NCBI GenBank assembly: GCA_964016885.1
Contig: OZ024740.1
Location: forward strand, 186,062,001-186,126,000
Length of the DNA stretch: 64,000 nucleotides
From: Eledone cirrhosa
Taxonomy: Eukaryota
Direction: 5' to 3'
The position numbers and the translations under genes were made by a program. Below are positions 13,326 to 60,000 of this stretch, in pieces. The notes beneath the pieces are model-generated. The model did not search any database. It worked only from the letters and a program-made list of their open reading frames with translations, and had not been told where the DNA came from. The number at the start of each line of letters is the position of its first letter. Position 1 is the first letter of the stretch.

Positions 13326-13366
13326 AAAGTGTTAAAACAATCAAAATTTTAGTTTAATACATTTAT

Positions 13367-13673: not shown

Positions 13674-13724
13674 TATGCTCCGATGACATCTACCACCCCC
13701 CAGGAAGAAACAATTGTCAGCAAA
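13674..13724 (+). ncRNA. Type I HHR, U4C variant
   Basis: UAUGCU-CCGAUGA-...-GAAAC-AAUU-GUC-AGCA; palindromic AAUU loop III; stem II decayed. Confidence 0.6.
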
Positions 13725-14425: not shown

Positions 14426-14429
<4 letters not shown>

Positions 14430-20322: not shown

Positions 20323-20330
<8 letters not shown>

Positions 20331-28149: not shown

Positions 28150-28360
28150 ACACACACACACATACACACACATATATATAGATATATATATGCACGCGCA
28201 CGTTTATATATATATGCACGCGCGCGTGTTTATATATATATAAATGTAATCTGAGTTTTTCGAATATTAATACTAACATTCGATTCGTTTGCAATTATGC
28301 TAACAAACCTCAATGTTATAGCCATGTCAGTAGAATGGACCCTTCATTCTTGTTCTTGTG

Positions 28361-28440
28361 TTGGCATGTGAACAGAACTGCAGACACTAATGTTTCTGGG
28401 TATCACCCATCATCAGTACAGCTCACTGTTCACCTGCCAA
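28361..28440 (-). ncRNA. Complete type I HHR with extended, bulged stem I
   Basis: UUGGCA-g-GUGAACAG-ug-AGCUGUA-CUGAUGA-U-GGG-ugaua-CCC-A-GAAACA-uuag-UGUC-UGCAGUU-CUGUUCAC-a-UGCCAA. Confidence 0.88.
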
Positions 28441-28766
28441 AATATCAGAGCTAGTGAAAATATATGCTATTTTTCAAAATTACACAGTGACTGATCGGCC
28501 TGATTTTCATATTAGCTGACTGGCTGGTCTGTCAGATCTGCATATTAGCAGGTCCACTGATCAGCCAGATTTGCATATCAGTAGACTGGTCAGTCAATTT
28601 CCTGTATACGAGCGATATATTTTCGCTCTACATGGCTGAATACAATAAATCTAATTTGAGTTGTTCGAATATTAATAATAACATTCGTTTCGTTTGCAAT
28701 TATGCAAACAAGCCTCAATGTTATAGCCATGTCAGTAGAGTGAACCATTCATTCTCACTCTTGTGT

Positions 28767-28823
28767 TGTACTGATGAAGGGTGATACCCTGAAACATTAG
28801 TGTCAGCAGTTCTGTTCACATGC
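28767..28823 (+). ncRNA. Inverted, 5'-truncated copy of the same HHR
   Basis: UGUA-CUGAUGA-A-GGG-ugaua-CCC-U-GAAACA-uuag-UGUC-agcag; 5' strand of stem I truncated. Confidence 0.65.
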
Positions 28824-28918
28824 AAACGAATAATTGCAAACGAATCGAATGTTATTATTAATATTCGAAAAACTCAGATTACATTTATTGTATTCAGCCA
28901 TGTATAGTGAACATTTTC

Positions 28919-28969
<51 letters not shown>

Positions 28970-33627: not shown

Positions 33628-33677
<50 letters not shown>

Positions 33678-33678
<1 letters not shown>

Positions 33679-33845
33679 ACACAGGAATTGTGGTAAGGAA
33701 CCGGATGGACCATAACGCACTAGAGTACTCAATACTTAGGGTAGTAGAGTGGGAAATAGGAAAAAGTCGACGGCTATTTCTGGACTTAGTCCAGAATGAG
33801 CCGTGGAAACGGCTTGAGCTCTGCCGTCGGGGACATACCTTTTCA
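33678..33845. mobile_element. TA-embedded copy of the 12479 family
   Basis: 33685-33765 is the reverse complement of the 12545-12630 tail; followed by GAAACGGCTTGAGCTCTGCCGTCGGGG. Confidence 0.75.
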
Positions 33846-36200: not shown

Positions 36201-37163
36201 AATTAGAATAATCGAATATATTGAACTATTTGAACAATCTAAACAGTACAATAGTATCGACATATCCTTATATTCCTTGTTACTTATTTTGCTGACTTCC
36301 CTTGAGTACGATGTAACATAGACCTATGCACGGGTTCGGGCTCAATATTAAAGAGACAAGCTATGCAAGTACAGATATTGTGTGAGCATCCAATGCCCAT
36401 AACATTAGAAGGATAATGGTGAGTTTCATTGTTTCTATTTTACAAACGTTGAGATTTAAATTTTAGATTCTACGTAAAATAAATGAACATATTCCACGAT
36501 GTGAATTTAGTGTAGTGTTTTCAGTGTTGATGATAACCATGAATCCTTATTCGTGCTTCAAATTATAATTCTCCTCCTTCAGAAAGAAAGAAATTTCACC
36601 AAATAGTCGTTGTCTTATCGCATTATGAATATTTAGAAGAAACTGCTATTGTCCAAGATAACTTATAACGGATTTTTCTCGTGGCTAAATTATATTTATT
36701 TTTATCAGTTCGACAATGCATACGATTTCATCTATATTGAAAACGGTAAAGTAAAAAAAAAAAGGAAAAAGACTGAGATATCTTTACAACACTGTTAATC
36801 GTACTGAATTAAGTTGGCCAATAAATATTTTTTTCTCGTGAAACTATATCAGACATTGATAATGATGTGGAGGATTCAAAGAAGCAATTCTTCTTACTAT
36901 ATCTCTGATGGAAACTAAACTGCATCCTTTGCAATTCTGCTTCTCAAATTGAATAGAGAAATTCTACAGCAAGGTAGATAAAATATCAAACGTGCAAAAT
37001 TTGATTTCGAAACAGATGCAATTTCCCTCTATGTATATACATTCATTTTTCTGCATTTCAATAATCAATTTAGTGGCAGCTGTAAATATATTCATAATGG
37101 AATGACTTGAAATTTGCATCTCGTATATTATACATATATTATACATATATATGTGTGTGTGTT

Positions 37164-37453
37164 TCATTTTTAGGATGGTTACTGGTTTTTGCGATGCTTT
37201 TTCATACTCCATTATTTCCGGTCACACCTTGTGGCATGGATTTTTGCTGAGTTTCTTATGTGCAACTTTCTTAACTGCAACTGTTATTAACCTCTCTGAG
37301 TAATGAGTTTGAAGTAGGAAAGGTCTGGTGCCAGGTGATGTACCCTTATTTGAAGTATCCGGTTTCTCGCACAGCCCCAGCCACAAGGTTTAGACCGGTA
37401 GAGAATGGAGTATGAAAAAGCATCGCAAAAAGCAGTAACCATCCTAAAAATGA
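37164..37453. repeat. Inverted repeat (~72-bp arms, ~145-bp spacer) abutting a (TA)/(TG) tract
   Basis: TCATTTTTAGGATGGTTACTG..GCGATGCTTTTTCATACTCCATT..CCTTGTGGC versus its reverse complement at 37380-37453. Confidence 0.85.
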
Positions 37454-38144
37454 ACGAAATGATAAGTGCAGCGTATAACATAGTGGCATGTATGCGAAAA
37501 ACACAGAAATATCGTTATGCTGTAACGTAAAAAAGAAAGGCGAGAATTTGTTACAGAATTTCACCACAATCCCATGTGTAGCTGGTAACTAAGTCGGTAA
37601 GTCTAAGGAGTGAATGCGCTTGGGCAGCATGGACTATACTGTGACAAAGGAAACTTTCGTGGAAAAATGTACCGAAAATAGAGCCGTCCACATTCTAATT
37701 CCTCCTGAGATAAATGTATGGTGTGCTCCCATACTAATATTACAAGGGGAAAATAGAGCGGCGCCACTGATTATAATGAATGCAGAGGTTACATGACATT
37801 AGAACATATTCGAGAAGCATGCAATCCATCTCTGCCAGAGTACATTTGTCAGTATAACCCAGATCTGACTGTCTTTAATTAATGAATTACAAAAACAGTG
37901 TAGTACTGTTAATACAATAGAAAACAATAAAAGGCTGCATCATGTCTTCGACAACAGCAGGAGAGGAGCGCCACACAGGCGGGTGAAATAAGAATGCAAG
38001 GTGTGAATAATCTGAAAGTACAGACTGGCCTGAACAAACGTTAGTATTCTAGAGCCATATTGGTATTACTATAAACAATGCACTGAACTTATGCCATACT
38101 TGAACTTGAGTAGGGATTTCTTTTGAAAAGTTAATACGGAGGGT

Positions 38145-38165
<21 letters not shown>

Positions 38166-38190
<25 letters not shown>

Positions 38191-38245
38191 AGATTCAGGA
38201 CCCCGACGATTGAGCTCCAGCCGTTTCGACATCTAAATCCGAACT
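38166..38245 (-). mobile_element. Short TA-embedded fragment of the 12479 family (HHR 3' half)
   Basis: AGGACCCCGACGATTGAGCTCCAGCCGTTTCGAC matches 12489-12522. Confidence 0.7.
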
Positions 38246-38281
38246 ATATATATATAAATATATAACACACACACCGACACG

Positions 38282-38345
<64 letters not shown>

Positions 38346-38352
<7 letters not shown>

Positions 38353-39212
38353 ACTAGAAATTGATTGACATATAAATATATCTAAAATAAACATATGAAA
38401 CAATCACAGGAGATAATTTGTAAAAGTGTCTTAGCACACATAGCTATTTAGGTAACTAATAAAATGTAACTAGAACTTCAAAAATATATACCTTATAAAT
38501 TGATTAATCTTCCTTGTATATATTCCATTAAAGAAATATATTTAACCAATTAATCGATTGGTAAACGACAGTAACCAGATCCTGGATTTTCAACAAGGAA
38601 GAGGACTAACCATCTGTGTTTACGCATCAAATTCAAATAAGCGACTGGCCAGTAACACGTGCTGTATTTACTAAAAAGACACGCATCGTACCAGCTTCGC
38701 CGCAGTTGCGTGAACAGGGTTATCGACAACTAGAAATAGCAGTCAATTCCTTTCAACTGAGTTAGCTCTACAATTAAGGGGCCGTATTTATATATATCCA
38801 TTTAAGTTAAATTAAGGGTGTCATGTCAGAATAGACATGCGCCATATCACCCGTAAAATATGCTCCAAGATTCCAATGAATAGATCCGAGCATTTTATAT
38901 CAACTAGAAATTGATTCACATATACGTATATCTAAAATAAACATATATACAAGGAAGATTAATCAATTTATATGGTATCTATTTTTGAAGTTATAGTTAA
39001 ATATTATTAGTTACCTACATACTTATGTGTGCTTACACACTTTTACAAATTATCTCTGTGATTGTTTCATATGTTTATTTTAGATATATTTACATGTCAA
39101 TCAATTTCTAGTTGATATAAAATGCTCGGATCTATTCATTGGAATCTTGGAGCATATTTTACGGGCGATATGTCGCATGTCTATCTCACATGAAACCCTT
39201 AATTTAACTTAA
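38346..39212. repeat. TA-bounded direct (550-bp period) plus inverted duplication
   Basis: CAACTAGAAATTGATT at 38351 and 38901; 38944-39212 is the reverse complement of [38802-38900] joined to [38346-38522]. Confidence 0.88.
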
Positions 39213-39215
39213 TTT

Positions 39216-39256
<41 letters not shown>

Positions 39257-39882
39257 GGGGTTGTACGATTAGGTAAATACAGAAATACGCATACATTATC
39301 ATTTCTTTTTAGTATCTTGTGTGTATTCTTTACGAGATGAAGTGTTAACATTTAATTACTGATAAGATATTGAGGAACATACTTTCTAAAATGTCTGCCT
39401 CGAAATAAAATGTTCGGAGGTATTAGTGCATAATTGAATTAAGCATAAATTAAAATATTTGCGTCATATTATCAGGAAGTATTTAATTTTGTTTCATTCT
39501 TATTTTTTTCTAATCTATTAGTTGTGTCATATTTGTGCTTCAATGAATGCTATATTGGGAAGCTCACATTTACATCTCGTTCTTACGCACTTCTAATTGA
39601 CAAGTAATGTCATTGTTTGTTGTTGTCATCGTTGATGTTGATGATGGTGTTGGTGGTTTTATGGGGGTTTGTTCTTTTACTGATGCTATTAACTTTTACA
39701 CTGTTTGTTTTCTCTTGCAATTGGTTTCAATGTCTGTAAATAAATAATTATTTTAAAACGTCAGTCTTATGAAAACGCCAAGTTGTGCTTAATGCAATAT
39801 CCTTTAAACGTTTTCAAATAGCAAATATTTATTTTTGTCTCTTCTCATCTCTCTGTATCTTTTCATCTCCATCTCACTATCC

Positions 39883-40090
<208 letters not shown>

Positions 40091-40479
40091 CTCACTCGTT
40101 CTTGCTCTCTGTATCTATCAAACAATCTGCCGTTGCACATTTTCGCACTCTGGTTTAAAATTTACGATCGAATTCTTCGAGAAAAATCTAAGATACTGAT
40201 TTAATAATGCATGAGTGTTCCAAATTTCTTTCAAAGCCAAGTGTTTTGAGCAGAATTAGATTTACATTAATTTCAACACATTGAAATATTTATTTATGAT
40301 GAACACCGAAAGAAAATTAAAAGAAAACAAATAAACAAGCAATTAAAGGACAAAAAATTGCACGCATATTTTAAAATTTAATAAATATCTAATTTTATTT
40401 TAAGAAAATTGTTTTGCCTAAAATTCCTGAAATGCTTAAATTATTGTTATTATTATTAAATGAAACTTTTATTGCTAAA

Positions 40480-40485
40480 ATAATG

Positions 40486-40541
<56 letters not shown>

Positions 40542-40620
40542 TATAATGCTTTCTTTATTAACCACAAGGGTTTACACAAAGTAGACATTAAGGACAGTAC
40601 AGGACGGTACAAATGGGCAT
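40480..40620 (-). mobile_element. Probable LINE 3' end with (TTA)n tail
   Basis: Minus strand ...CCCTTGTGGTTAATAAAGAAAGCATTAT followed by the (TAT)n array 40480-40545. Confidence 0.4.
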
Positions 40621-41149
40621 TTCTGCGTGTAAAAAAAAACAAAAAAAACACAGGATGTAATAAAAGAACAATGAAAAAAAAAGAAATTATTATTATTATT
40701 GTTGTTATTTTTATTATTATTATTACTATTATTATTATATTATTATTATTATTTTGTGCCAAAATTAGAAACAATTATTATTATTATTATTTACTTACTG
40801 TGGGAATAAGAAATAGTTTGTTACATTCAGTTGCATCTCTTATTTACAGCTGTTCTCCTATATTAATTTATTTATGTCAAAGATTAAACAATCTAGCAGG
40901 TGCAAAGTGTTTCTTAATTCCAATATATATTTTTATCATCGGTTTGTTGAATAATAATTTGTAACATCAGAAATATTTGAATTAAGGATTAGTCAATTTC
41001 AAATTTACCCAGTACTTGACTGGTACTGTATTTTAGGTTTGAAATAGAGAGGCGAGCTGCGTAGAATTGTGTATGCACTAGTGCACATAAATCCTCTGAT
41101 ATTCTTGTTTTAAAAGATATCCCTATAAGGCTTATGAGCCTTCATGATA

Positions 41150-41305
41150 TGTTTAGGGTTAATAATAGAAGGTTATTATATAAACCCCAGTAATCGACAG
41201 GCACTTCGTTCAACAACGGCTAGTATAACAGATAAAATGAAAGTTGACCTCATCGGGATATATTGCAAGCCATTCCGTCGAATAGTCTGATGATACTGAC
41301 AATCC
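41150..41305 (-). mobile_element. Decayed SINE family 1
   Basis: CCCCAGTAATCGACAGG...AAATGAAAGTTGACCTCATCGGGAT, inverted relative to 47351. Confidence 0.55.
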
Positions 41306-42269
41306 ACCTACTATCAAACAATTTATGTTATATGTACATGTAAAATACTGAGGTTCTACAACAATGGGATATTGCTGTAGTCTCTTGTTGCCATCCAATT
41401 CCAATATATCTTTTATATATACAGGTGTTTATCATGATTTTATGTTTATGTTTATCCCATTAGTCTGTTGCTATAGAGCAGAAACTATGATCAAAGGCGT
41501 TCTAGCAATAGTGAATATATACCTAACTTATCCAACGTGTTCTTCCTTTGTTGATAAGAATTTAGAGTGTTTTGAATGGCAATTGCGCTGCAGTTTCCAG
41601 TAGGTGAACCGACTGTCTAAAGAAAACATACTTGACATCGTTTTTGTCATTAAGGTATTCATGCAAATGATCATTTAAACGTTCATCGTCGGAATTGCAA
41701 TGTTGAAATATTACACTCTATAATCTGTTTGGATTGTCACATTCAAATGCTTAACCCGTACGTATGGCACCATTTCTATAAGGATATTCACAGTTGTGTC
41801 AATGATGTATGATGAAAATAGAGTACTTATTTTGTTGGTGAAAGAAAGCACGTAGTACATATAACAGTAAATTGCGTTCTACTATAAGATAATACGTCTT
41901 TTAAACATAAATTCCATTATTTTTCACTAGTTATCAAGTCACTTTGAAGTTCCCCCATTTTCTATAATCGAAGTAGTCGTTAATATTTACAAGATTCTCG
42001 TCATCAAAATCACTGTTATTATTTGAAGTTTCATTAGTAAGTAAAATACCGGTACGTTTCCACAACCAACCAAATGTATCATCAACATATATCAACCAAC
42101 ATTCCATAAAAAGTCATATCCTAAAAGAAATGGCAGTGATACATGTTACATTAAAATAATGTATAGCTTTACACTCTGAATTTCCAACTTATGGTTTTTG
42201 ATTTAAACCGACTCAGCTATTATTACGATTAGATCCAAAGATTACAGTAAATTATCAGTGCAGGCACAC

Positions 42270-42426
42270 ATACACACATACGCGCACACACACACATACA
42301 CACGCATATATAACCTTGTGTTGGATTATGTAGGTAAATATACATATGTCTATATATACTATAATAACAATATATTTGCATATATATGCACATCCATTTA
42401 TAAATAAATACATATATGTATGTGTG

Positions 42427-42512
<86 letters not shown>

Positions 42513-42608
42513 TGTGTACATACATACATACATATATATAGCTATACATATATATATATATGAATATGTATATATATATGTACACACATATTCATATATG
42601 TATGTATG

Positions 42609-42697
<89 letters not shown>

Positions 42698-43165
42698 ATA
42701 TATATATACATATATATATATACATAATATATATAAGTATAAGTATTCAAAAATAATCGATACTGTTGTAACGTCATTAGTTATCAAGGAGGCTATAGCT
42801 ATACATGTATCAATATTTGCTAAAGAAAACATCCTTAAACGCTCTAATGGAGCAGTTCTTTCATTGATAATTTTATTTTATTTCATATTTTCAAAATAAC
42901 TCACTCTATAAGTTTTAGGTAAAAAGAGAGAAACAAAAAATGAGATAAACAATATATTTATGCTACATTCGATTTTGTATCCGAAGAACACGTTTCTCTG
43001 ATAAAATAAAATTGCATTCACATACACTTGAGTAAACATATATATATTTACAACCAAATATTATTGTAATGCTGATGTATATGCGTGCGTAGAACACACT
43101 AACACACACACAGATATATGCATACACACACACATACACATACCCACACACACCCAAACACACAT

Positions 43166-43237
<72 letters not shown>

Positions 43238-43675
43238 GTGTGTGTGTGTGTATGTGTTTAAGTGAAACTGTACACATGAGTCATTCATATGTGGACTTGT
43301 GCGAGTGTATACACACAGTCACACAAACACACACACATATATATCTATATATAATTATATATGTGTGTGTTTATGTATGTGTCCGTTTTATATATGTGAT
43401 TATGTTTATATATTATGCATATTGTACATACGTGCTTAAACTGATGCATGCGTAACAACAAATGCACACACATATATTGTTTTAATCAGATAACTCTATA
43501 TATTTTGATGTATAGATATATGCATACACTCATACACATGCACATACACACACATTCATATATTTATACATATAAGTATGTGTGTGTGTATATATTTCTA
43601 TCTATATATGTGTGTGTGTATATGTATATTTGTGTGTGTGTCTTAGTGTTTGTATGCATATTTCTATACATCAAA

Positions 43676-43710
<35 letters not shown>

Positions 43711-43720
43711 GAATGAAGCA
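42270..43720. repeat. Compound (TA)/(TG)/(CA) low-complexity region
   Basis: Direct inspection. Confidence 0.9.
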
Positions 43721-44149
43721 ATTATGTGCAAATCAAGAGATAATGAAATCAACTCGATACGCACTTGATTGCATTATCCATCTTTAATTGTAGCCAAACT
43801 TTGATTAAGTAAATCATTCAAAGAGCAGAATTGAGTTATTTTCTTGAATTCCCAGTAATAATATATCATTAATTAGAGGAAATTCAATCATATTACTCTA
43901 ATTTCATTAGATGTTTATCGTGACTATTATTCTATTAAAATAGATTTGCAAAAGTTCGGTCTCGTTCAAAAATATTTCCTACAAAATTATCGCACTTGCG
44001 CTAATCTATTCATTTAAAGAACATTCAGCAGTTGAAGGGTTACTTATGAATTCAGCTTTGTATATAAACACGTTTCAGTCTCAGAAAGACTAATAAAACA
44101 ACTCAAACTTTCAACTATCCCTATGAAACTTTAGGTGATTGCTGGTGAA

Positions 44150-44342
44150 TATTCAGTTGTGACACTAAGGCATTAAGCGTCTAGGAGTACACAATAGTGC
44201 AACATTTTCCCAGTCCCATACAATGTGCTTGAGGACCTTTCCCCCACGAACCTCCTACGAATAAAGGGGCAAAATAGAAGAAGAAGAAGAAGAAGAAGAA
44301 GAAGAAGAAGAAGAAGAAGAAGATGATGATGATGATGATGAT
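44150..44342 (+). mobile_element. RTE LINE extreme 3' end with expanded (AAG)n(GAT)n tail
   Basis: CCCCACGAACCTCCTACGAATAA...GAAGAAG resembles the 3' ends at ~35230-35275 (-) and ~56075-56113 (+). Confidence 0.5.
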
Positions 44343-44779
44343 CATTACGAAATCACACTACCACAAGATACTTTGTGCACCCACAGCTGTATACAACAGT
44401 GTATTTTACTCAATGATAACTGAAATAAATTTCAGAAATAAAGTATACTAATACAGATTTAAGAATTAGGGTTGTGGTCGTGGCAATAACCGAACAAGTC
44501 ATCAATAAAACACAGCTAGTATCAACCAATTAATAAAACAATTAATACAAATATTTTTTTAAATGTTGATCGATTCATGACTCAGGTCCATAAATTATAT
44601 AAGTGACCTTGAGCCAATCATCTATGAAACGTACGTAACAGCGCGATAATCATTTAACACATGGAAACGAAACTTCATTATTGTTTTTCTTAATACATAT
44701 GTATATACATATATGTGTGTGTGTGAGAGAGAGGGAGAGGGAATGAGAGAGATAGAGTGTATGTGTGTCCCGGGTTCTC

Positions 44780-44822
<43 letters not shown>

Positions 44823-46664
44823 TATATAGACCAGAAATGTGTGTTCTTAAATTTATATACTGTACTTTTGTCATAATGGCTAAGGCCCAATATCTCGGAA
44901 GTTCGATTTGCAACAAAAAGGCTCCATATCCAATCCTGTCCTATAGCTCTTGTGGATACTATCGGATAAAATGTACTTGTAATTTTAAATGTCGGCTCTG
45001 TCACATGCAAATGAGGAATTTGTCTATAAATTGCATAAATCATATTTTTATCAAAGACTTTCAGCTGACTATATTACGTGTCTGCATTCTAAGGGTAATA
45101 GTAATCCGTAAGCACAATGTTTCCTTGATTTGATTTTAATGTAATATATTGTTAATATTAAGCTTCGCTCTTATGTATCATGTTTACACATGGCATATTA
45201 CAGTAATATAATTGTCCAGCCAACAATTTGTATGTTGCATTAATTCTGGTTTACACTAAGCATATTTAATGAATATTCAGATACTAAAGAAATATGTGCT
45301 CAGTATATTAATTGTGTAAAATTAGAGAATCATGATGTACTAAACTTGTGTAAAAAAGCGTATATATGTATGTTCTGAATTGTAGGCTGGAGTGTTGCAC
45401 CGAGGTAGCTAACAGTTTGCATATGAATAACTCTTTTCATAGATCATGAGCTTTCTGTAAAAATGTCTATGGCCTCAAGCATTGCAACACACATTGGAAA
45501 TAGCTTCTGAATAGAAAGCTAATATATTCTCATTAATTATGTAAATTAGTAAATATATTTCAGAGAAATTTAAGGAAAATAATTCAGAGCAAAATATTTT
45601 TAGGTTTTGTGCTTATTTTTTTTTCAGCTAAAATGATATATCTCAAACTGAAGAATTTCTTCAATCACTAGCCTGCAATAGTTCTGGTTGATCACGTTTC
45701 CCTGATGAAATTGTCTGTGTAAGCGGTTAAATATGCTTTCGTTGTTAAGAAAGCCGGGCAAGGCCAACTTTGCCTGCATGTGTATAATATATTAGCTGAA
45801 TCATTAATTACATATATTTTATTTATCAAACATACAACAAGCATTTATTATTAAAAGCATATCAAATTATAACATGTATTTAATTGCTTTTTGCATATGT
45901 TCTTCTAATCTTATTATATGTCACTTATCGGTTAGAATTTCATTCAATAAATTATATCCTTTCTCCTTTTCAGGATATACTAACATTTTATGATTTTGGA
46001 ATACTTGTGGATATATTTAGTCTTATATACGGTAAGTTAACTTATTTATTAACTTTGCTTCTATAACAAAGTGATCGTTATTTCATTCTCCATACAATTG
46101 CCTTTAAATAACCACCACGACTAGTTATTTCCAATTTGCAATGATCACAACATTTCCCTCACTTTTCCTTCTCAAACTGTAATGATCTGTCAGAAATCTG
46201 TTATGTACATTGATATATACGATATTCATATAATAACTCAACAAATTCCTTTGTAAAATAGGTTATTAAAGATAGGTGAACAAAACAACAAATTAAGTAA
46301 GATGAGGAAAAGAAGAAATCAAGTGCAAAGTGATTTAAAGTGTTGAACAATAACATACAGAAATAGCTACTGTAGTTGATCTGGGTTTGATTTCTTAACA
46401 ACTTTCTTTAATCCCCCAAACTCACAGAACTTCTATTGTAACGAAACTTCTTTTATCTTAACGTCTCTCTCCACTCTCCGGTTCACCTTCAATAATATTT
46501 CAACAAAATTGGAATCTTTGTCCTCCTATGTTTTGTATCCTTTCTATTGTTTATTTTCTCTTTACTCACTCTATCGTTTTTATTCGTATGACTCCTTGTT
46601 GTTGCCCCCCCCCCCCCTCTCACTCTATTTTTTTCTCTCCTCTCACTTTTTTCTCTCTCACTAA

Positions 46665-46782
<118 letters not shown>

Positions 46783-47350
46783 GTCTTTCATTCTATCTCT
46801 TTCTCGGCCTCGTAAATACATATGCCAAGATATGCTTAGGCAGCCATTTTAATTGATGCTCTATTTGTCCGCAATATGCGCTGATGTCACCAATACAAGC
46901 GTAATCTGTCATTCATATTTGTCCAATTCAGTTGACAGGCAGCAACGTTAATGATATTATTATTGGTGCTGCTGGTGCTGGTGGTAACTTTTGTGGTTCA
47001 TGTCAGACTTTATTATACACACACATACATATGTATATGTGTGAGTGTGCATGTGTGTATAACAAAAAGTGACAAAAAAAATACAAAAACAATTTATGTT
47101 TTTAGGTTCAAACTTTATATATATAATATATATATATGTGTGTGTGTACGTGTGTGTGTGTGTATGTGTGTGTGTGTGTGTGTGTGTGCGTGTGTGTGTA
47201 CATGTACATAGCCATGTGTGTCTGCATGTGTGGGCCTGAATATATTTTCCAATACATCATTTCTTTTTCAACTGGATTTGAGGGCGGTGTGATTGTTATT
47301 TCGAGACAATTGAATACCCGCTGAGAGACTGCTCCTGGGTTCGTGTCATT

Positions 47351-47533
47351 TGGATTTGCAGTATCGGTAGAGGGTCGGACGCCATGCTTTCCAGAATAGT
47401 TACGTCCCTTTACGATCTGAGTTCAAATCCCGCCGAGGTTGACTTTGCCTTTCATCCTTACGGGGTCAATAAAATAAAGTACCAGTAATGCACTGGGTAA
47501 TTGCTGGCCTTGTGCCTAAAGTAGAAACAATTA
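47351..47533 (+). mobile_element. tRNA-derived SINE (family 1), best-preserved copy
   Basis: A-box-like TTGCAGTATCGG, B-box GAGTTCAAATCCCG, body GAGGTTGACTTTGCCTTTCATCC..ATAAAATAAAGTACCAGT. Confidence 0.88.
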
Positions 47534-49888
47534 TATTTCTGGTGGATGTTAGTGTTGGTGTTGGCATTGTTGCTTTGTTTTGTGGATCCTTTTCTTTTTA
47601 CACTGACCTTATTTGAATAAACTTATCGAATTACGTATCTCTCCGACTTCTAAATGTATTTGCCAAATTGTTTTCAGTTAGCCCCAAATCCCTTGAGTTT
47701 CTCATAAGTTCAGGTATATTTTTTTTAAATACTCAAATTTGATAATTGAATTGCTATAAAACGCCGTATTTATGATATTCTCCTTTATATATATATTTCA
47801 ATCACGTTCGGGAATTAATTTCTTGAAGAATGATGGAATATCACGTTTGACATTTCAATAGTTATTTCATTAACTTAAAGTTTCCTATGTCGATATTAAT
47901 TGTATATAAATATACATTCTTTAATACCTCCCCATAAAAAGCGCTGCTTATTAATGTAAATGCTTAGGTGTGTTATTATGTTAAATATGAAGCAAATGTA
48001 AATATTTGGAAGGGTTTAATGTGATATAAATGAACAGTTATCTACATAACTGTCTTCATCCGTGAAAAATTTTGTTGATGTTCGTTTTACGTCTAATTCC
48101 CGTTCTCTCGTTTGAACTTAATATTACTTATTCTCAAATATAAATTGAGATATTTCTGATAATACAGTAGCCTTTTTCGAGAATTGGAATTACCAACGAA
48201 ATCATTATGTCGTCAATTAGATTCCATTAAACATAATAATAATATATCTGCATTCGGTTTTAATGACTATAAGACACGCCATTACGATAAATGCAAGATT
48301 ATAAATGTTGAATTACTAGAGCATCATTAACTCAAAGTAGAACATTCTGTATATTTTATTCTAATTCGAAAGAATATTCTATTGATCAAAATTTAATCTA
48401 TTGAGGGATTAAGAATAAGTTGAGCGGAAAATAATGTGAATATTCAATATATTAATATCACTTAAAACTAATTAAGAAACCAAAGCAGATTTCTAGCAGG
48501 GCCATATTAGCAGAAAAAACTATTGTCACTGTTTTGTTTTAACTTGATTTAACAAACCCATGCTAAAATACATATCATCCGTGTTCGTCCATCATTTTGA
48601 CAGTATCTAGAACCACATTATATAATACGTCGGCCTTCTGATTATAACAACAGGGTAGGAATTAAGGAAGATTTAACTGTTATTTCTAAATGACCGTTTA
48701 GGTTGCAGCAAATGCACTTCTATAGGAGCACATCTGGATATATATATATACCAAGCTGTTACCCATCCATAATTTCTGCATGAAACAAACCATTAGTGGT
48801 ACAATTTCAATGTACATATTTCTATTTCGTTTTACATATGAATGTCATCCATACTTGTATTTCAGTATATTATATTATTTCTGTTATTTTTCGTCTGAAG
48901 GATGATGTAAACAAATTTTTTGTAAAACATTTGTATTCCGGAAAATAAACAAGGGATGCCAATATTACTTTAAAATCATTAGATACTTAATAAGAGACAA
49001 ATATAACAATTTCCAGTGTATAAGTTGTATATATTCTGTAGACTCTCGAGAAGCAAAAGAGATTCAAATGATTTTTTTCATCTAAAAATGTTGAATCAGG
49101 TGCGAAATACGGTTCAACAATGCATCCGATCAAATAACAATCCATATTCAAATTGAATATTGATTGTTTTTATAACCTCCGTAATCTCAAACTGGGGAAG
49201 CACTCAAACAATTAAATCAATTTAGTACTATATTTCGGGTGGTTAAAATGCCATGTAGGTATTGAACTTATAAGACAAATTAATGTAACTAATGCCATCA
49301 CCTTTTTTTTCAATCAGCATTTTACTGTTTTGCAAGTCATTTCCATCATTTCAAATATATTTCGAATTAAATATTAGATCCATTTCTAATATTCGAAAAT
49401 GTTATACAAATGAATGAATTAATTATATAGTATTATGTCTTCGCAGATTTTTCACATTTAATAATAACTTGCTATGTTGTCAAATAGTAAAGATAATGAA
49501 TAGATATAATCCAATTCTATGCAAACTTACAAGTCATATTGTATTAAATATAAATCTATACCATAAAACTTATGGGATATATTTGCTAATTTGGATCCGT
49601 TGCAATAAAATAACAACTGAACCCAATATAAAATATATAAAATTCTATAAACATATTATACTGGACATATTTTTGTCATAAAGAAGGCATTATTTCACAT
49701 TCTATCAGTTTTCTTCGAAGAAAAAATAAACATTTTCTATGAAATTAATTTTCAATATCTAGAAATTATGCCATCCTTTGATTGGTGGGCGCGCGAAGAA
49801 TTTGTGAAACGTGTGAGTATCGTTCTCCGAATAAAAGACAAGGTCGTTATGAATTTCTTGAATACGTCATCAAATAAATGACAATCTA

Positions 49889-50012
<124 letters not shown>

Positions 50013-50016
50013 TGTG

Positions 50017-50050
<34 letters not shown>

Positions 50051-50067
50051 TATATATATATGTATAC

Positions 50068-50127
<60 letters not shown>

Positions 50128-50230
50128 CTGTATTTGTGTATTAATGTCATGTCTGTGTAAGATGGAAATATTTTTTTCTTACGATTTCTAAGGAATTCAA
50201 ATAGACATCATAAAAGAAGGCTTTGATCTT

Positions 50231-50267
<37 letters not shown>

Positions 50268-50807
50268 ATACACTATCAGATCTCGCTACCTGACACGAGA
50301 GGTGTATGCTTATCGAGTTGTATACTAAATATACTACTGTCTTCTCGTGAATATTAAAGCAGAAATGTGCTATAGGAGAAGACACTTTTATTGATGCTTG
50401 TTTAAAAGACTGGACATAAGCAAGGGAAGCCGGAAAACCGCGTAAATCTTCTACACATTCATCGTGTGTAAACCGGCTTAAATAGAATCCAAACAAAAGA
50501 ATCGAAATCAAATTGAAATTTGAATTTAACTTACAAATAATGAATATTGAAAGCGATAACTTTGAAATATATTTTAGAACAATAAATGCGATATTATGTA
50601 GGAAGCGTGGCATACAGTCATTATATTGTACGACAAAAAACAACAACATTTATCTGGAAAATATTTAAAGGAATATCGATTACTGTATTGGAATGAAAAG
50701 AAGAAATGTAAGATTCTTCCACACATTCAATTATATAGGAGACTACCATAGCTTGTATTCAGATATATGAAAGGTACGCGATTTTAGTATATAGTGTATA
50801 TGATAGA

Positions 50808-50957
50808 GGCGACGAATTGGCAGAATCGTTAGAACGTCGGATAGAATGCTTTGCAGTATTTGTTCCAAATCTCTGACACCTGAGTTCAAATCCAACTGAG
50901 GCCAACTATGCCTTTCGAAGCCGATGGAAAATGTGTCAATCTAATACTGGGGTTAAT
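50808..50957 (+). mobile_element. Decayed SINE family 1
   Basis: TTGGCAGAATCGTTAGAACGTCGG...GAGTTCAAATCCAACTGAGGCCAACTATGCCTTTC. Confidence 0.75.
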
Positions 50958-51373
50958 GTGTCCTCTATATCTCTTTCTTACTTCCTCTCTCTGTCTTTTC
51001 ATACTTCTTTTGAAAAAAATCTGTTGTGTTCAAACTTAGTGCGGGGATGGGTCCTCTAGGCATAACATGTCCAGGAAACGCTGACTGTCACTATGTCGCC
51101 CTTACGACTTTCTTAAACGTTCGGTACCATAGTATATATGTTAGAAATTAACGATTTATTGTTGTTGTTCCGGACCCCTATCCGTTGAGTTCTCATCTCA
51201 CCGAAGCTCACTCTGTTTTTCTTTATTTTCTTATCGAAAATAAAAGTATGAATTTAGTGCTGGTGCAGCAGTTCAAAGTTGACGGTGAGTACATCTAATA
51301 AGATTAGGGAAGGATAGTTCATTCTAAAATGGCATACACTATTGCAAGGAAAGCCCATACCTACTATACATTA

Positions 51374-52110
51374 ATATGGAACTATGATCTCGCTGTATGG
51401 CAATGGGGGGGGGGGGTTAGCAATATACGGTACTACGATGCTAGGTGCCGCAGTATGGCACTGCGGAGCTAGGGTGACACACTATGGCACTGGGAAGCTT
51501 CAGAGACACAGTATAGAAATATGAAACTAGGATGTCAGAGTATGGCAATGGGGAGATAGGGTGGAAAAATACGGCACTTCTGAGCTAGGGTGGCACACTC
51601 TGGAATTTGTGAGCTTGAGTGACACAGAATGGAAATATGGAACTAGGATGTCGTAGTATGCAGTGGGGAAATAGGGTGGAAGAATACGGAACTTCTGGAC
51701 TAGTCTGGCGCAAAATGACACTGTGGAGCTAGTGTGGCACAGTATGGGAATCTGGACCTAAGATATCGAAGTATGGCAATGGGGAGATGACGTGGAAAAA
51801 TACGGCACTTTGGAGCTAGGGTGTCGCACAATGGTACTGTGGAGCTAGGGTGGCACACTATGGCACTGAGAAGCTTCAGTGAAACAGTATGGAAATATGA
51901 AAGTAGGATGACGCAGTATGGCAATGGGGAGATAGGGTGGACAATACGGCACTTCGAGGCTAGGGTGCTGCACCATAGCACTGCGGTGCTATGGTGGCAC
52001 ACTATAGAAATGGGGAGCTTCAGTGATCAGTATGGAAAGATGGAGCTAAGATGGCTCCCTATGGCAATGGGCACATGGTGTGGGAAATATGTCACTTTGA
52101 AGTTACTAGG
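51374..52110. repeat. 29-bp minisatellite with higher-order 4-5-mer organisation
   Basis: About 25 units, consensus AGCTAGGGTGGCACAGTATGGCAATGGGG; variant units recur in a fixed order. Confidence 0.9.
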
Positions 52111-52504: not shown

Positions 52505-53530
52505 TTAGTGCCGAATTAAAATTAATAGGAGCCAATGCCGGAATAAAACACTATGGATTAGTGTCGGATTTAAAATAGTGAATTTAAGTGCCGAATTAAA
52601 AACACTAATGATCAGTACCGGATTAAAATTAATAGCGATAACTTCCGGATTAAAAATAATAAGTCTCAGTGCCGGATTAAAAAGAATAAGTGTCAGTGCC
52701 GGATTAAAATTATTAAGGGTCACTGCTGGAATTAAAGAAATAAGGATCAATGCCGGATTAAAAAGTGTCAGTGCCGAATTAAAAACATTAGTCAGTCCCG
52801 GATTAAAAATAATGGTCATTGTTAGATTAAAACACGAAAGGAATAGTGGCGGATTAAAAATATTAAGGGTCAGTCACGGATTAAACGGTGGCACAAATGA
52901 TCGACGCCGGATTAAGATAATGAGAATCACTGCCGGATTAAAAATAATAAGGGTCACTGCTGCATTTAAACAAATAAGGATCAGTGCCGGATTAAAAATA
53001 ATAATTGTCAGTTCCGGATTAATGCAGAATTTAAAATAAAATGTTTGAGAGCCAGATCAAAAACATTAACAAATCAGTGCCGAATTAAAAATAGTAAGTT
53101 TAAGTCTCGGATTAAAAACACAGTGCCGTGTTAAAATTAATAAGGATAAGTCCCACATTAAAAATAATAAGGAGCAGTGTCTGATTAAAACACTAGGGAT
53201 TAGAGCCGGTTTAAAAATAGTAAATTTAAGTTCCGGATTAAAAACACTAATTATCATTGCCGGATTAAAAATAATAAGCGTCGTCAGTGTTGGATTAAAG
53301 AACAAAAGGATATGTGCCGGATTAAAAACACTATGGATTAGTAGCGGATTAAAACGTGTTCGAGCCCGATTAAAACACAAATGATCGATGCCGGATTAAA
53401 AATAATAAGTTTGAGGGCAGGATCAAAAACATTAACGAATCAGTGATGGATTAAAAAATAAAAATGGTCCCTTTCAGTGTAGGATTAAAAGGCTAGGGAT
53501 TAGTACCGGATTAAAAATACTAAAAATCAC
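52505..53530. repeat. 27-bp minisatellite
   Basis: About 38 units, consensus TGCCGGATTAAAAATAATAAGGGTCAG; explains the 9-aa-repeat ORF 52578-53039. Confidence 0.92.
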
Positions 53531-55419: not shown

Positions 55420-56113
55420 GGAACCATTTGTCAGATCAAACCGAAGAAATTGTTTCTATTAATGACATAGTTTACCAGCTGCAAATCCTGGCAGTAGAAG
55501 CTTGAGCAGTTCACTCTACGTATGAGTGGATGTCCACTGAAGCATGTGGGTAATTTCAAGTATCACTGAGTCGTTTTCATTAGGGGGGGGGGGGGGGGGG
55601 GGCTGAATTAAATACAAGAATTGCAGGGCGCCAGCTTCAGCGTTTGGTAGTCAGCCAAACTCGATATATTCAATTCGATATTTCTGCAAGTCCTTAACTT
55701 TGGTCATCAATCTTGGGTAATGACCGAGAGAATACTAAAGCAAATACAAGCGGCTGAAATGGAGTTCCTCCTTAGCGTTTTGCAATAGCGTTACTCAACA
55801 GAGTTCGTAGCTCGAAAATCGGAGAATCGCTTCAAGTAGAGCTGTTACATCTCCGAATTGAACGATCCCTGCCTCCCTACTATGGACATATGTCAGAGTG
55901 TCTAAGAAGAAAATTGCTAGACAGTTTGTATAGGCAGAAGCAACCGGCAGGAGACACACCGGAGTAGACCCCGAGCAAGATGGGCTCAGTTAGCTTTTAC
56001 TTGGATCCCACCGGATCACGTGGAGACTGTTGTCGCTGAGAGAACTCGCTTAAAATCGTGCTTGAGAGTTCTGGCCCCACAACCCACCCATGAATATATG
56101 AGCAAAGAAGAAA
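55420..56113 (+). mobile_element. RTE-clade LINE 3' fragment, decayed
   Basis: GNFKY (FKYLG-like), GRR..R.RPRARW C-terminal motif, 3' CCCCACAACC...GAAGAAAA end. Confidence 0.65.
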
Positions 56114-56504
56114 AACTCATAACAGAAAAGTACCATGTTTCCAGTGACAAGAGGCGGTATTGATATGAGAACGCATAGAGCCTAAACTTAATCGGCAAAT
56201 CATCTAGTCCGATTATTTTATAATTCAGCTTATCCCTATCGAAGGGTACTTTATAAACTCATACAAACTTGACTACAGTGAGATATCCACTCAGAGCAAG
56301 AATCTCGCATCAATTACAAAGATAACCAAATTCCATTACTAATTTCCTCATACGCTGTCTTTTTTCTGTAAATCAATTTATATTTAAATGTAATCTGAGT
56401 GTTTCGAATATTAATAATAACATTCGATTCGTTTGCAATTATGCAAACAAGCCTCAATTTTATAGCCATGTCAGTAGAATGAACCCTTCATTCTTGCTCT
56501 TGTG

Positions 56505-56584
56505 TTGGCATGTGAACAGAACTGCAGACACTAATGTTTCTGGGTATCACGCTTCATCAGTACAGCTCACTGTTCACCTGCCAA
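56505..56584 (-). ncRNA. Type I HHR with extended stem I
   Basis: Intact CUGAUGA/GAAAC/GUC; stem II GCG/CCC has one mismatch. Confidence 0.8.
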
Positions 56585-56949
56585 ACTCTCAGATCTAGTG
56601 GAAATATATGCTATTTTCAAAAATACACAGTGACTGATCGGCCTGATTTCCATATTAGCAGACGACTGGCTGATCAGTCAGATCTGTACATTAGCAGATC
56701 CACTGATTAGCCAGATTTGCATATCAGCAGTCTGGCCAGTCAGTTTCCTGTATACGAGCGATAAATGGCCGGTTTTGCCAAATTCAAATAAAAAAGAAAA
56801 GAATTGTCGCTCTACATGGCTGAATACAATAAATGTAATCTGAGTGTTCCGAATATTAATAATAACATTCGATTCGTTGGCAATTATGCTAACAAGCCTC
56901 AATTTTATAGCCATGTCAATAGAATGAACCCTTCATTCTTGCTCTTGTG

Positions 56950-57021
56950 TTGGCATGTGAACAGAACTGCAGACACTAGTGTTTCTGGGTATAACCCTTC
57001 ACCAGTACAGCTCACTGCCAA
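56950..57021 (-). ncRNA. Type I HHR, A6G mutant
   Basis: CUGGUGA-A-GGG-uuaua-CCC-A-GAAACAC-UA-GUGUC; ~8-nt deletion in the 5' strand of stem I. Confidence 0.65.
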
Positions 57022-60000
57022 ACTGTCAGAGCTAGTGAAAATGTATGCTATTTTCAAAAATACACAGTGACTGATTGGCCTGATTTGCATATTAGCAAAC
57101 TGGCTGATCAGTCAGATCTGCATATTACAGATCCACTGATCAACCATATTTGCATATAATTTGCATATAATTTATATTTAAAATGCTAATAATCTGTTTT
57201 CTGAGTGCGTACTTTAGACGAGAAACTTCCAACTTACAGTGTGGAGTTGAGATTTCAAAGTCCATACCGATAAAGGAAGATTAATCTATACAGAATTTCA
57301 AAGATGTTATGATTGTCGATAATCCTACGATATCGACTAAGTCAGAATGCAACTTTCTGCAAGGAATTTAAGTATATATTTAAGTATATTTAAGTATATA
57401 TACGCTATCATCAATATCTATACTAGTAACATAAAAGATGTTTTATTCATAAAAGTTTACTATAACAGAGTATGTAAATAACCTCACCTACTTTTCACTG
57501 CAAGTGGAATACAATCAATACTTTTGTTCTGAAGTGAACTATTTTTGTAAAATGTTGCTTGAAATAAACGTGTATAGCCTTTGATATTTTGAATAAAAAT
57601 GTTTTATTGTTTTATATAATTAAATCAAAATTGATTTGATAAAAGAAATTTAGATAGCTGAAAAGGAAAGTCGTCCTACAGCAGATACAAAATGAAAATA
57701 TGTTAAACGTAGCACATTATTTAATTAAAGGATTTGTAGAGTAAATATGTCTTTACATTTAGTAAATTTGAAATAAGCTAGGAACAAAATGCAAACAGTG
57801 TTAATAGCTGTTTTACGTTTCATGTTCTCTGATATTTCAGGAATTAACTATTTTTATTGATAATATATTTTAATTCCTCTTTGACCAAATAAGGACAAAA
57901 TACGTATTCAAGATATGAATAACTATTCTTATTTTCATATTGCATACCTACAACTATATTATCGCATCTTTCCATTTCTAAGAAATAGCACCTACTTCCT
58001 AGGAAATTTGACTCCTATTTTAACTGATCAATTAAGTAACTGCGTTAAGTCTCTCGCTTTGTTTGGCTCTATCAATTATCGTTTTTCATAGTTGTGGATA
58101 TGTGAATTAATTCTATAGAGTTCGTTTGACGTTTTAGTAGAGAGGGTGTGGGAATATAAAATGTATAGATTCGTCACAAGCTATGACTGCTTGTGTCGTC
58201 TATTTGTGAGGGAAAGAGCCACTTCTGAGGATATTTAAATCTGACATTTGTATCTGCTAACCATATTGAAAAGTAACTGAAATATTTTAAAATTTGAAAA
58301 TAGATGTTTAAAATAGTTTTATGGCAAATGGAGATAATCAGCCGTTGAGAAATTGCATCTAAGTAAAGTCTGCATCAGTCTGGTTTGATATATTTTCGAA
58401 TCAGACATGTTGACAGCATACCATATCTGTTGCAATGAAAATTTATTAGCTATGTATTTACACGGAATATGGTAACATAGTTATTCAAGAGTTGATATGT
58501 CATCTATATTCAGGTTTCTGAAATATTTCAGTTCTAATATGATTCACCATTTTGCCACCTATTTAATATCGTAGTTCCTGATCAGGTGTATGCCTTTTTT
58601 TACATAACATTTGGAGAGTATGAAATGGGTAGACGTCATCTGAATCTGTCCTCTGAATCTAATGCCCTGATTTTGACTCTTATAATCACCATATACTAGC
58701 TGTTTTACTTTCCTGTCGTTTTCAGGAGCCTGTCATATTCAGGAGCTTTCTCGAGTATAGCCTTCTCCTATTATGTTGTGATGTCGTTTATTTAATATAT
58801 TTATGCTAGAATATAATATAAATTATTTGAGCTAGGAATTGAACTCACCTCACATATAATCAACGTTTATATTGATAAGCCCCTTTATTTCACGTAACCC
58901 CAGTTTACTCAGCTGTAGAAATGAGTTGTCAAGCTCTATTGGCTATTTCCTTTCTCTTGGACAACATCGGTGGCGTGAAGAGGGAAGAAATGTATGCAGG
59001 GTGGCTTGGTTTATCACAAATAACCTTGCCCACTCTTGTGCCTCTGAGGACAAATTCTTTGGTAATTCATGGTCATTCATGACCGAAGAGTGCCTTTACC
59101 CTTCTTTTTGTCTCTTAGGACAATTACATGATAGACATTAGTATGTTTAAATCTTACTCATGCTTAATACTCTAGCTGAAGATGTATATTAGAAAAGAGT
59201 AAGGTATTAGTATTGCAACAGTAAAGGTAAATATGTTAGAAACGTTTTCAGCAAGCTCTTCTGACTTGTCTTAATGTTGGTTCTAAACATCCACAGGCCA
59301 TACTTTAGAGTTAAATGAACCTCTTTGGAAACTTATTATAGCTTAGTAATTTTACTGTAAATTCCATCAAACCTGGCTACCTCATATACTAAGAATTTCT
59401 GGTGTATGTGGTAAATCTAGATGTAAGTATATCTAAGAAATTCAAATATATGGGGTTCAACAACAAATAAGATTGGTTTCAATATGATACCTTTAGGAAG
59501 AATATGTATTTATACAAAAGGACTATAGATAACCCGAAACAAGTAGGAAACCCACACATAAATTCTACAGCCATTTAGTGTTATTTGTGAGTTCTAATTT
59601 AATGAACGTTTTGTAAAACTAGAGGATTAATCATTTTGTCAGAAATCTTCAGCCGTACAATTTCACTAATTTAGGTGTTTCATTATTTGTCGAATGCGGA
59701 GATGTGCCAACTGTCCATGTATTTTACAAAGCCGTTATGTTCGCTTTAGGTAAATTCCATTTTGAAAAACATTATAGGTTGTCTATAAGAACGGAGACGT
59801 TTTTCATTATGTTGCTGTGGAGTATAGCCGCCATTTAGAATCAATTAGCGTCAGAGTAGTCTTAAGAACAAGGACTACTGATTGATGTTTCTATAGTTTG
59901 TAGTCTACTTCCAATATTTGGGTGCAGCAGCCGAGTCAACTGACGACAGCTGACTGGGTAAAATTTAACGAATAATTCAGCGGCAGGAGTTTTGTGTTTA

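What the first reader, a model, noticed from the sequence alone, without database searches (positions are those of the whole stretch)
56385..57157. Retrozyme-like 405-445 nt tandem monomers, each carrying a complete hammerhead ribozyme
Seen: a non-coding unit repeated head-to-tail here (period 445) and at 28241-28766 (period 405), 28 kb away, with one type I HHR per unit on the minus strand. The best copy (28361-28440) has an intact CUGAUGA/GAAAC core, a GUC triplet, a 3-bp stem III and a ~21-bp stem I with a UG bulge 7 bp from the core. Established: tandem HHR repeats of this size (non-LTR retrozymes) in other animals self-cleave into monomers that circularise and are thought to be mobilised by PLE reverse transcriptase, and bulged stem I/loop II contacts support fast cleavage. 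Inference: this is a cephalopod retrozyme family that may produce a ~400-450 nt circRNA. I do not know of a description of it.
Basis: partly seen in the sequence, partly recalled or inferred. Interest (0 to 1): 0.85.

Follow-up and report, generated by a model that had tools for sequence, protein, structure and literature searches.

The report
High-copy Penelope-type hammerhead retrozyme family
A 445-base non-coding repeat carrying a hammerhead (self-cutting RNA) motif sits here as two short insertions with the marks of Penelope-like retrotransposition and is likely one of tens of thousands of mostly truncated copies in this animal genome; it is a new member of a known kind of parasite (animal retrozymes), and self-cutting and RNA circles are predicted but untested.

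Summary
The repeat is real and the coordinates are exact: a 445-nt minus-strand unit forms a 1.74-mer at 56385-57157 and a 1.3-mer (405-nt variant) at 28241-28768. "Each unit carries a complete hammerhead" is overstated. Rfam gives no hammerhead hit.

New evidence fits Penelope-type mobilisation: a fixed 3' end 142 nt past the predicted cut site, a 14-bp target-site duplication, a (TA)n target, an inverted 5'-truncated copy with a 27-nt tail, and a rare allele shared by adjacent units. Public contigs show depth roughly 33,000-52,000 times the unique flank at the 3' end, falling to about 700-fold at the 5' end, with head-to-tail joints in two organisms. So the family is mainly dispersed and truncated, not a satellite.

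The single hammerhead is predicted to be locked by a competing helix and to need the dimeric fold. No partner ORF was found, cleavage and circles are untested, and "cephalopod" is unverified. Verdict: a new member of the animal non-LTR retrozymes.

The parts
56385..56829 (-). B1: full 445-nt unit; RNA-sense 3' end fixed at 56385
   Evidence: joint 56829->56385 in public runs
56830..57157 (-). B2: 5'-truncated upstream unit (328 nt), making a 1.74-mer
   Evidence: 94% identical to B1; shares with B1 an allele at 56401 that is under 1% of family depth
56505..56584 (-). Type I hammerhead of B1; core 56560-56554, C17 at 56527; stem II broken by a private change at 56551
56950..57021 (-). Type I hammerhead of B2; core from 57005 with A6 changed to G, C17 at 56972; stem I 8 nt shorter; perfect palindrome over stem/loop III
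56375..56388 (+). Target-site duplication, left copy (14 bp; its last 4 nt overlap the element's 3' end)
   Evidence: 0 of 19,456 random 40-nt segments shared 14 nt with this flank
57169..57182 (+). Target-site duplication, right copy
57158..57168 (+). 11-nt duplication of the element's truncated 5' end at the 5' joint
56630..56726 (-). Three 33-36-nt subrepeats, each with an octamer-like motif (family majority: two perfect, one with a single mismatch); also at 57155/57123/57090 and 28576/28543/28510
   Evidence: majority letters; the octamer motif itself is recalled
56614..56633 (-). Weak PSE-like stretch (4 of 8 named human positions match; the GAA lies 3 nt late); speculative
   Evidence: compared by eye with positions named in PMC9652321 section 9
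28241..28645 (-). A1: full 405-nt unit (about 40 nt shorter near its 5' boundary), same 3' end, abutting (TA)n
28361..28440 (-). Only intact type I hammerhead of the family in the window; C17 at 28383
28646..28768 (-). A2: 123-nt 5'-truncated upstream unit with no hammerhead core
   Evidence: shares the allele at the position matching 56459 with A1 only
28767..28926 (+). A3: inverted, 5'-truncated, internally deleted copy with a fourth core (28771-28804), ending in (TA)n
28888..28914 (+). About 27-nt extension ('tail') of A3 past the common 3' end, matching the start of the next unit

Best explanation
This is a non-coding, hammerhead-bearing retroelement with Penelope-type insertion marks (an animal non-LTR retrozyme) whose multimeric RNA is likely cut by paired hammerheads into ~445-nt monomers, would be circularised by a host ligase, and is likely copied into AT-rich DNA by the reverse transcriptase-endonuclease of an autonomous Penelope-like element not found here. 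SHOWN: unit, junctions, fixed 3' end, 14-bp TSD, (TA)n target, inverted copy, tail, high copy number with a 3'-to-5' gradient, no recognisable ORF. INFERRED: (1) transcription across two or more units, by read-through or possibly from the octamer-bearing subrepeats; (2) cleavage after GUC mainly in the double-hammerhead fold, because the palindromic stem/loop III pairs 10 bp with itself while a 7-bp competing helix between the core and loop III locks the single ribozyme and would protect a circle; (3) ligation, by analogy with RtcB results in axolotl and mussel; (4) target-primed reverse transcription from a fixed internal site 142 nt 3' of the cut site, or about 27 nt further (tail); most copies stop within one unit, a few pass the junction and give partial tandems; priming from the second strand gives the inverted copy. 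The two window loci are aged copies that probably cannot release a monomer by themselves now.
For: Insertion anatomy equals the PLE pattern of partial tandem, adjacent inverted 5'-truncated copy, tail at one end and (TA)n target (PMC8557442 section 6), seen at locus A. 14-bp TSD at locus B. The 3' end is the same to 1 nt at B1 and A1 and internal to the cut-to-cut monomer, as for the internal RT start and AT-rich nick of the anole PLE (PMC11167929). Run X1: summed contig depth 13.1 on the unique flank, 434,000-678,000 at the 3' end, 216,000-324,000 over the ribozyme, 8,600-11,000 at the 5' boundary (ratios about 33,000-52,000 down to 660-840). No cliff at the cut site (357k, 324k, 267k in adjacent bins), so the template was uncut, multimeric or circular. 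Head-to-tail joint in X1 (10 contigs), X9 (953 reads, about 109 starts) and organism B (1 contig); none in organism D's run. B1 and B2 share G at 56401 where 99% of family depth has T; A1 and A2 share an allele that B1 and B2 lack, as expected if each locus was copied from one template. Monomers fold far better than shuffles (z -6.3 and -7.3, 0 of 100 each). Double hammerhead -72.0 against twice the inactive rod -73.4 and twice the single hammerhead -59.8 kcal/mol. Family variants shown inside the ribozyme (56513, 56514, 56548) keep wobble pairs or lie in loop II, and none of the 40 rows shown is in the core (64 rows not shown). Size, GC content and type I fold match PMC7229834.
Against: No cleavage or circle is shown. 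Rfam does not recognise the motif. The majority form appears to have A-A at the base of stem II (B1 and B2 have it; no majority change is listed there), and a 3-nt loop II; no tertiary contact was tested. A free two-strand fold prefers an inactive duplex (-81.2 kcal/mol). Four copies give no significant covariation (377 of 500 shuffles as high). In the anole PLE, cleavage was not needed for insertion and no reads ended at the cut site. Only 1 of 9 Xenopus retrozyme dimers cleaved in vitro. B1 and B2 differ by an 8-nt stem I indel that recurs family-wide (44 contigs in X1, 2 in X4), which a single rolled circle explains only by recurrent deletion. No partner ORF found. The tool warns that summed contig depth is not a copy number, and unitig breaks and the stretch edge can distort the gradient.
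Confidence: 0.6

Rival explanations
1. The same non-autonomous Penelope-type element, but mobilised from uncut read-through multimeric RNA; the hammerhead is slow, protein-dependent or vestigial, and no abundant circle is made.
For: Hammerhead mutants did not affect insertion by the anole PLE, whose ribozyme cut only with protein; 8 of 9 Xenopus dimers did not cut; the single fold is disfavoured by 6.8 kcal/mol and stem II has a basal mismatch; the B1/B2 indel difference fits a mixed multimer template.
Against: Core intact in 3 of 4 copies and no core variant among the 40 rows shown; palindromic stem III suited to the dimer fold; mussel retrozymes lacking the usual loop contacts still cut and gave abundant circles.
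Confidence: 0.27
2. The unit is only the pseudo-LTR or truncated 3' end of an autonomous Penelope-like element.
For: The coverage gradient and insertion anatomy are those of any PLE; an extra base after A9 is typical of PLE hammerheads; Xenopus retrozymes are sister to pLTRs; 780 loose-end rows were not shown.
Against: At both loci the 5' boundary joins the unit's own 3' end; 953 joint reads against 18 reads overrunning either end in X9, an enzyme-biased library; no domain in 132 window ORFs except one sub-cut-off viral hit elsewhere; the 78-aa junction ORF matched only unrelated repeat proteins.
Confidence: 0.08
3. A satellite DNA or local tandem duplication spread by DNA recombination, with a fortuitous hammerhead.
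For: Adjacent units share rare alleles, which local duplication also gives; long arrays elsewhere are not excluded.
Against: A 40-80-fold 3'-to-5' depth gradient where a satellite predicts flat coverage; TSD, inversion and tail; descriptor null 0 in 60.
Confidence: 0.05

Closest known systems
Metazoan non-LTR retrozymes (Cervera and de la Pena 2020, PMC7229834; read parts 2-4 of 6; supplement not readable), closest the 350-390-bp Mytilus galloprovincialis family
   Same: Non-coding head-to-tail unit of 150-450 bp, under 50% GC, one type I hammerhead per full unit with a short stem III, TSD longer than 4 bp, well-folded monomer.
   Different: At the upper size limit; mostly sub-monomer truncated copies; long (20-21 bp) stem I; A-A at the base of stem II; a predicted self-pairing lock on the core, whereas that paper finds most metazoan circles leave the ribozyme free (some mussel circles excepted); no RNA evidence here.
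Vertebrate non-LTR retrozymes as non-autonomous PLE derivatives (Li, Clavereau, Pollet 2026, bioRxiv 10.64898/2026.07.22.740005; read parts 1-3 of 5; supplements closed)
   Same: Monomers and short multimers dominate (75% of their families have at most seven units); PLE link.
   Different: Their 'active' criterion (two consecutive units with complete hammerheads) is not cleanly met at either window locus; no mollusc sampled; their PLE link rests on pLTR homology, mine on insertion anatomy.
EN+ Penelope-like elements (Craig et al. 2021, PMC8557442, passages and section 6; Frangieh et al. 2024, PMC11167929, parts 1-2 of 4; Cervera and de la Pena 2014, PMC4209133, parts 1-2 of 4)
   Same: Partial tandem, inverted 5'-truncated copy, tail, (TA)n/AT-rich target, 3' end internal and downstream of the hammerhead.
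   Different: No RT or GIY-YIG ORF; the monomer is 0.45 kb; the hammerhead is a full type I with stem III, not a minimal one.
Newt satellite 2 (seen only as a sentence and reference in PMC2220036; Coats et al. 1994 not held)
   Same: Hammerhead-bearing tandem unit acting as dimers (PMC6155905 passages); reported to have an internal snRNA-type promoter, which the octamer subrepeats here recall.
   Different: Promoter function here is untested, and both the PSE match and the octamer spacing are poor.

Membership tests
Animal non-LTR retrozyme | Non-coding head-to-tail unit of about 150-450 bp, GC under 50%, no LTR/PBS/PPT | tested here: met
   445/405 nt, 39% GC, no tRNA in the window, no Pfam domain; junction in 3 of 4 runs laid
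Animal non-LTR retrozyme | Type I hammerhead in the unit | tested here: met
   A1 meets a full descriptor, null 0 in 60; Rfam gives no hit
Animal non-LTR retrozyme | [quoted passage not shown] 2026) | tested here: inconclusive
   Locus B has two cores, each with a lesion; locus A has one complete ribozyme on the sense strand. Other loci could not be read: no genome is held
Animal non-LTR retrozyme | TSD longer than 4 bp when present | tested here: met
   14 bp at locus B; at locus A a 14-nt match lies inside (TA)n and is uninformative
Animal non-LTR retrozyme | Self-cleavage of the transcript | not testable with these tools
   energy estimates only
Animal non-LTR retrozyme | Monomeric linear and circular RNA in vivo | not testable with these tools
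   needs RNA reads or blots
Autonomous EN+ Penelope-like element | ORF with RT and GIY-YIG domains | tested here: not met
Penelope-type mobilisation (works like) | 5' truncation, partial tandem, adjacent inverted copy, tail, AT-rich target | tested here: met
   against PMC8557442 section 6; tail is about 27 nt against 30-40 nt in print
Penelope-type mobilisation (works like) | Terminal homology to an autonomous PLE of the same genome | not testable with these tools
   no genome held; pattern scans of microbial collections empty
snRNA-type promoter (as reported for newt satellite 2) | Octamer DSE at about -250 to -170 and PSE at -70 to -40 | tested here: inconclusive
   Octamers present, but one is expected in a 445-nt stretch with p about 0.09 and the three are copies of each other; PSE 4 of 8 human positions; octamers would lie at about -154, -121 and -85; no host-lineage PSE found in print

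The most novel reading that the evidence does not exclude
A self-sufficient retrozyme: it carries its own snRNA-type promoter (three octamer subrepeats and a PSE-like box, which would start transcription inside stem I) in parallel with newt satellite 2, and a built-in 7-bp helix that locks the hammerhead in the monomer circle while the palindromic loop III unlocks it in dimers. That would contradict the published view that metazoan retrozymes have no promoter and are not blocked by self-pairing, and would make it an abundant octamer-bearing circular-RNA family at tens of thousands of loci.
Probability: 0.15. Interest if true: 0.65.

Novelty: new member of a known kind. Interest (0 to 1): 0.38.

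Why it matters
It adds a very abundant family to the animal retrozymes and gives DNA-level support (fixed internal 3' end, TSD, inversion, tail, alleles shared by adjacent units) for the still unproven proposal that Penelope-like machinery moves them. A 2020 review said metazoan retrozymes show no conserved motif pointing to their partner and seem to lack promoters (PMC7761336 passages); this family offers a testable RT start site, a candidate promoter and a candidate lock. I found no description of a cephalopod hammerhead repeat in searches for 'hammerhead ribozyme'+octopus (4 papers listed), ribozyme+cephalopod+hammerhead (4 listed) or retrozyme+hammerhead (40 of 49 listed), and the 2026 Octopus vulgaris repeat annotation does not mention ribozymes. 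Repbase/Dfam and several supplements could not be seen, so the family may already be catalogued as a PLE or unknown repeat.

Tried and rejected
Rfam scans: no hammerhead family; hits were microRNA models on simple repeats. Whole-genome copy count: no genome held. Sequencing runs: no RNA holder listed. Run X1 may be the sample the window came from. Read start/end peaks in X9 (56509/56512, 56437/56440, 56456, 56784) first looked like a second RT start; they coincide with AATT sites and a GCATG(T/C) variant, so I take them as restriction sites of the RAD library (enzyme identities recalled) and reject them. The loose-end cluster at 56807 could be tail ends or the same artefact and is not used. 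The 78-aa junction ORF as a PLE N-terminus: no hit among longer proteins; five phmmer hits were unrelated repeat proteins matching residues 40-77. Pattern scans of metagenome and viral contigs: 0 hits. Covariation on four copies: not significant. Bacterial promoter scan: irrelevant and at chance. Host identification: not achieved. Newt promoter paper not held (search empty). One search was uninformative: none of the 20 of 5,733 papers listed contained 'retrozyme'. Earlier scan notes on this genome or sequence: none.
Full report
1. What is there. The window is AT-rich (33% GC, 6.7% dinucleotide repeats) animal-type DNA with no recognisable gene: 132 stop-free frames of 60 aa or more, low-complexity ones left out, gave one sub-cut-off Pfam hit. 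A 445-nt unit (56385-56829, RNA sense on the minus strand) occurs at two loci. Locus B is a full unit (B1) preceded in RNA sense by a 328-nt 5'-truncated unit (B2), 1.74 units in all. Copies are 89-94% identical.

2. The ribozyme. A1 carries a complete type I hammerhead at 28361-28440 with C17 at 28383. A structural descriptor found it and two motifs of other families, against 0 hits in 60 resampled windows, so it is not chance, although Rfam does not recognise it. The other copies are damaged or partial: B1 has a private break in stem II, B2 has A6 changed to G, A2 has no core, and A3 lacks the 5' arm of stem I. B1 and B2 have A-A at the base of stem II and one search lists no majority change there, so this is probably the family form; A1 and A3 each close it to a pair. 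The free fold of A1 is an inactive rod in which the core pairs 7 bp with stem/loop III (probability 0.95); the single hammerhead is 6.8 kcal/mol worse; a double hammerhead through the 10-nt self-complementary stem III is about equal to two rods (-72.0 against -73.4), though a free two-strand fold is lower still (-81.2). B2 carries a double change that keeps a pair of the competing helix (A-U to G-C), a single observation. Four copies give no significant covariation. Cleavage is therefore plausible, mainly as a dimer, and not shown; fast cleavage is unsupported.

3. Insertion marks. B1 and A1 end at the same base to within 1 nt, 142 nt 3' of the cut site. Locus B is framed by a 14-bp TSD whose last 4 nt overlap the element's end; none of 19,456 random segments matched that well. 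It also has an 11-nt duplication at the 5' joint. Locus A lies in (TA)n; its inverted copy runs about 27 nt past the common end. Craig et al. list this set of features for Penelope-like elements: 5' truncation, partial tandems, an adjacent inverted copy, a 30-40-bp tail and (TA)n targets. Frangieh et al. show that a PLE protein nicks AT-rich DNA on both strands and starts reverse transcription at internal sites downstream of the hammerhead.

4. The family beyond the window. No genome is held. Eight of 11 listed public runs hold the stretch in whole or part; I laid four on one unit plus 85 nt of flank. In X1 (contigs, organism A) summed depth is 13.1 on the unique flank, 434,000-678,000 at the 3' end, 216,000-324,000 over the ribozyme and 8,600-11,000 at the 5' boundary. 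The tool warns that this is not a copy number, and X1 may be the window's own sample; still, the ratios (about 33,000-52,000 falling to 660-840) point to tens of thousands of mostly 5'-truncated copies and against a satellite. There is no cliff at the cut site, so cut linear monomers were not the main template. The head-to-tail joint 56829 to 56385 stands in X1 (10 contigs), in raw RAD reads X9 (953 reads, about 109 starts, against 18 reads overrunning either end) and in organism B (1 contig); organism D holds only short pieces. Peaks of read ends in X9 sit on restriction-like sites and were rejected. B1 and B2 share an allele that is under 1% of family depth, and A1 and A2 share another, as expected when each locus is copied from one template more than once round, or from a homogenised array. 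Against a simple rolled circle, B1 and B2 differ by an 8-nt stem I indel that recurs in the family.

5. Mechanism. Shown: anatomy, abundance, absence of a recognisable ORF. Inferred: a transcript spanning two or more units is cut after GUC, probably by double hammerheads; the monomer is ligated by a host enzyme (RtcB in vitro for axolotl and mussel); a PLE protein acting in trans primes on nicked AT-rich DNA at the fixed internal site and copies backwards through the ribozyme, usually stopping early and sometimes passing the junction. I give this 0.6. The main rival (0.27) keeps everything except the cutting and the circle: in the anole PLE cleavage was dispensable for insertion, and 8 of 9 Xenopus dimers did not cut. 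A plain pLTR of an autonomous element (0.08) and a satellite (0.05) fit worse. No partner was found: the 78-aa ORF across the junction gave nothing relevant.

6. A possible promoter. Upstream of the ribozyme lie three 33-36-nt subrepeats with octamer-like motifs (motif recalled); the family majority has two perfect and one single-mismatch site. Newt satellite 2 is reported to use an snRNA-type promoter (one sentence and a reference title in PMC2220036; the paper itself is not held), whereas a 2020 review says retrozymes seem to lack promoters. The case here is weak: one octamer is expected in 445 nt with p about 0.09, the three are copies of each other, the PSE-like stretch matches 4 of 8 positions named for human U6, and the spacing is short. 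It stays a lead.

7. Comparison and verdict. It works like, and on the DNA-testable features is, an animal non-LTR retrozyme (PMC7229834; Li et al. 2026), already known from a mussel and reported in crustaceans and other invertebrates. The RNA-level defining features could not be tested. The host lineage is unverified: the sequence style fits an octopod in my judgement, but no call shows it. My searches found no description of a cephalopod hammerhead repeat; repeat databases, the supplement of PMC7229834, one supplementary file of PMC4209133 and the preprint's supplements were not seen and may list it. Earlier notes of this scan report similar elements in other animals (unchecked leads). Verdict: real, a new member of a known kind, interest 0.38.

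Noticed in passing
window 20328-20708: Near-perfect inverted repeat (97%) next to (TA)n carrying a minimal PLE-type hammerhead in each arm (cores 20476(-) intact; 20560(+) with A6 changed to G; 5-bp stem I, palindromic 4-nt loop III, U-U at the base of stem II): a second, unrelated hammerhead family.
   Followed up: partly
window 14427-14552 (element probably to about 14620): Palindromic insertion between (TA)n runs with a type I hammerhead-like motif (core 14493(+), GUA triplet, 5-bp stem I, U-U at the base of stem II); the inversion centre lies just 5' of the core, as in A3: a third family.
   Followed up: partly
window 14644-15018, 13326-13763, 38802-39212, 6413-6602, 12480-12551: Further palindromic insertions, most of them beside (TA)n, with no hammerhead core found by a relaxed scan; likely inverted 5'-truncated PLE-type ends or MITEs.
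   Followed up: partly
window 19549-19923 (+): Decayed mariner-type transposase fragment; best named homolog is a Penaeus vannamei hypothetical protein at 76% identity.
   Followed up: partly
window 55654-55983 and 35342-35669: Two 69%-identical inverted copies of what looks like a LINE (RTE-like) 3' remnant; the first lies 400 nt from locus B (family name recalled from a peptide motif, not tested).
   Followed up: no
window 51440-52071 and 52507-53354: Adjacent degenerate minisatellites with 29-nt (116/144 higher order) and 27-nt periods.
   Followed up: no
window 56570-56577: An 8-nt indel in stem I defines a common family variant (B2 type; 44 contigs in X1, 2 in organism B) that keeps the bulge and can still pair beyond it.
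   Followed up: partly
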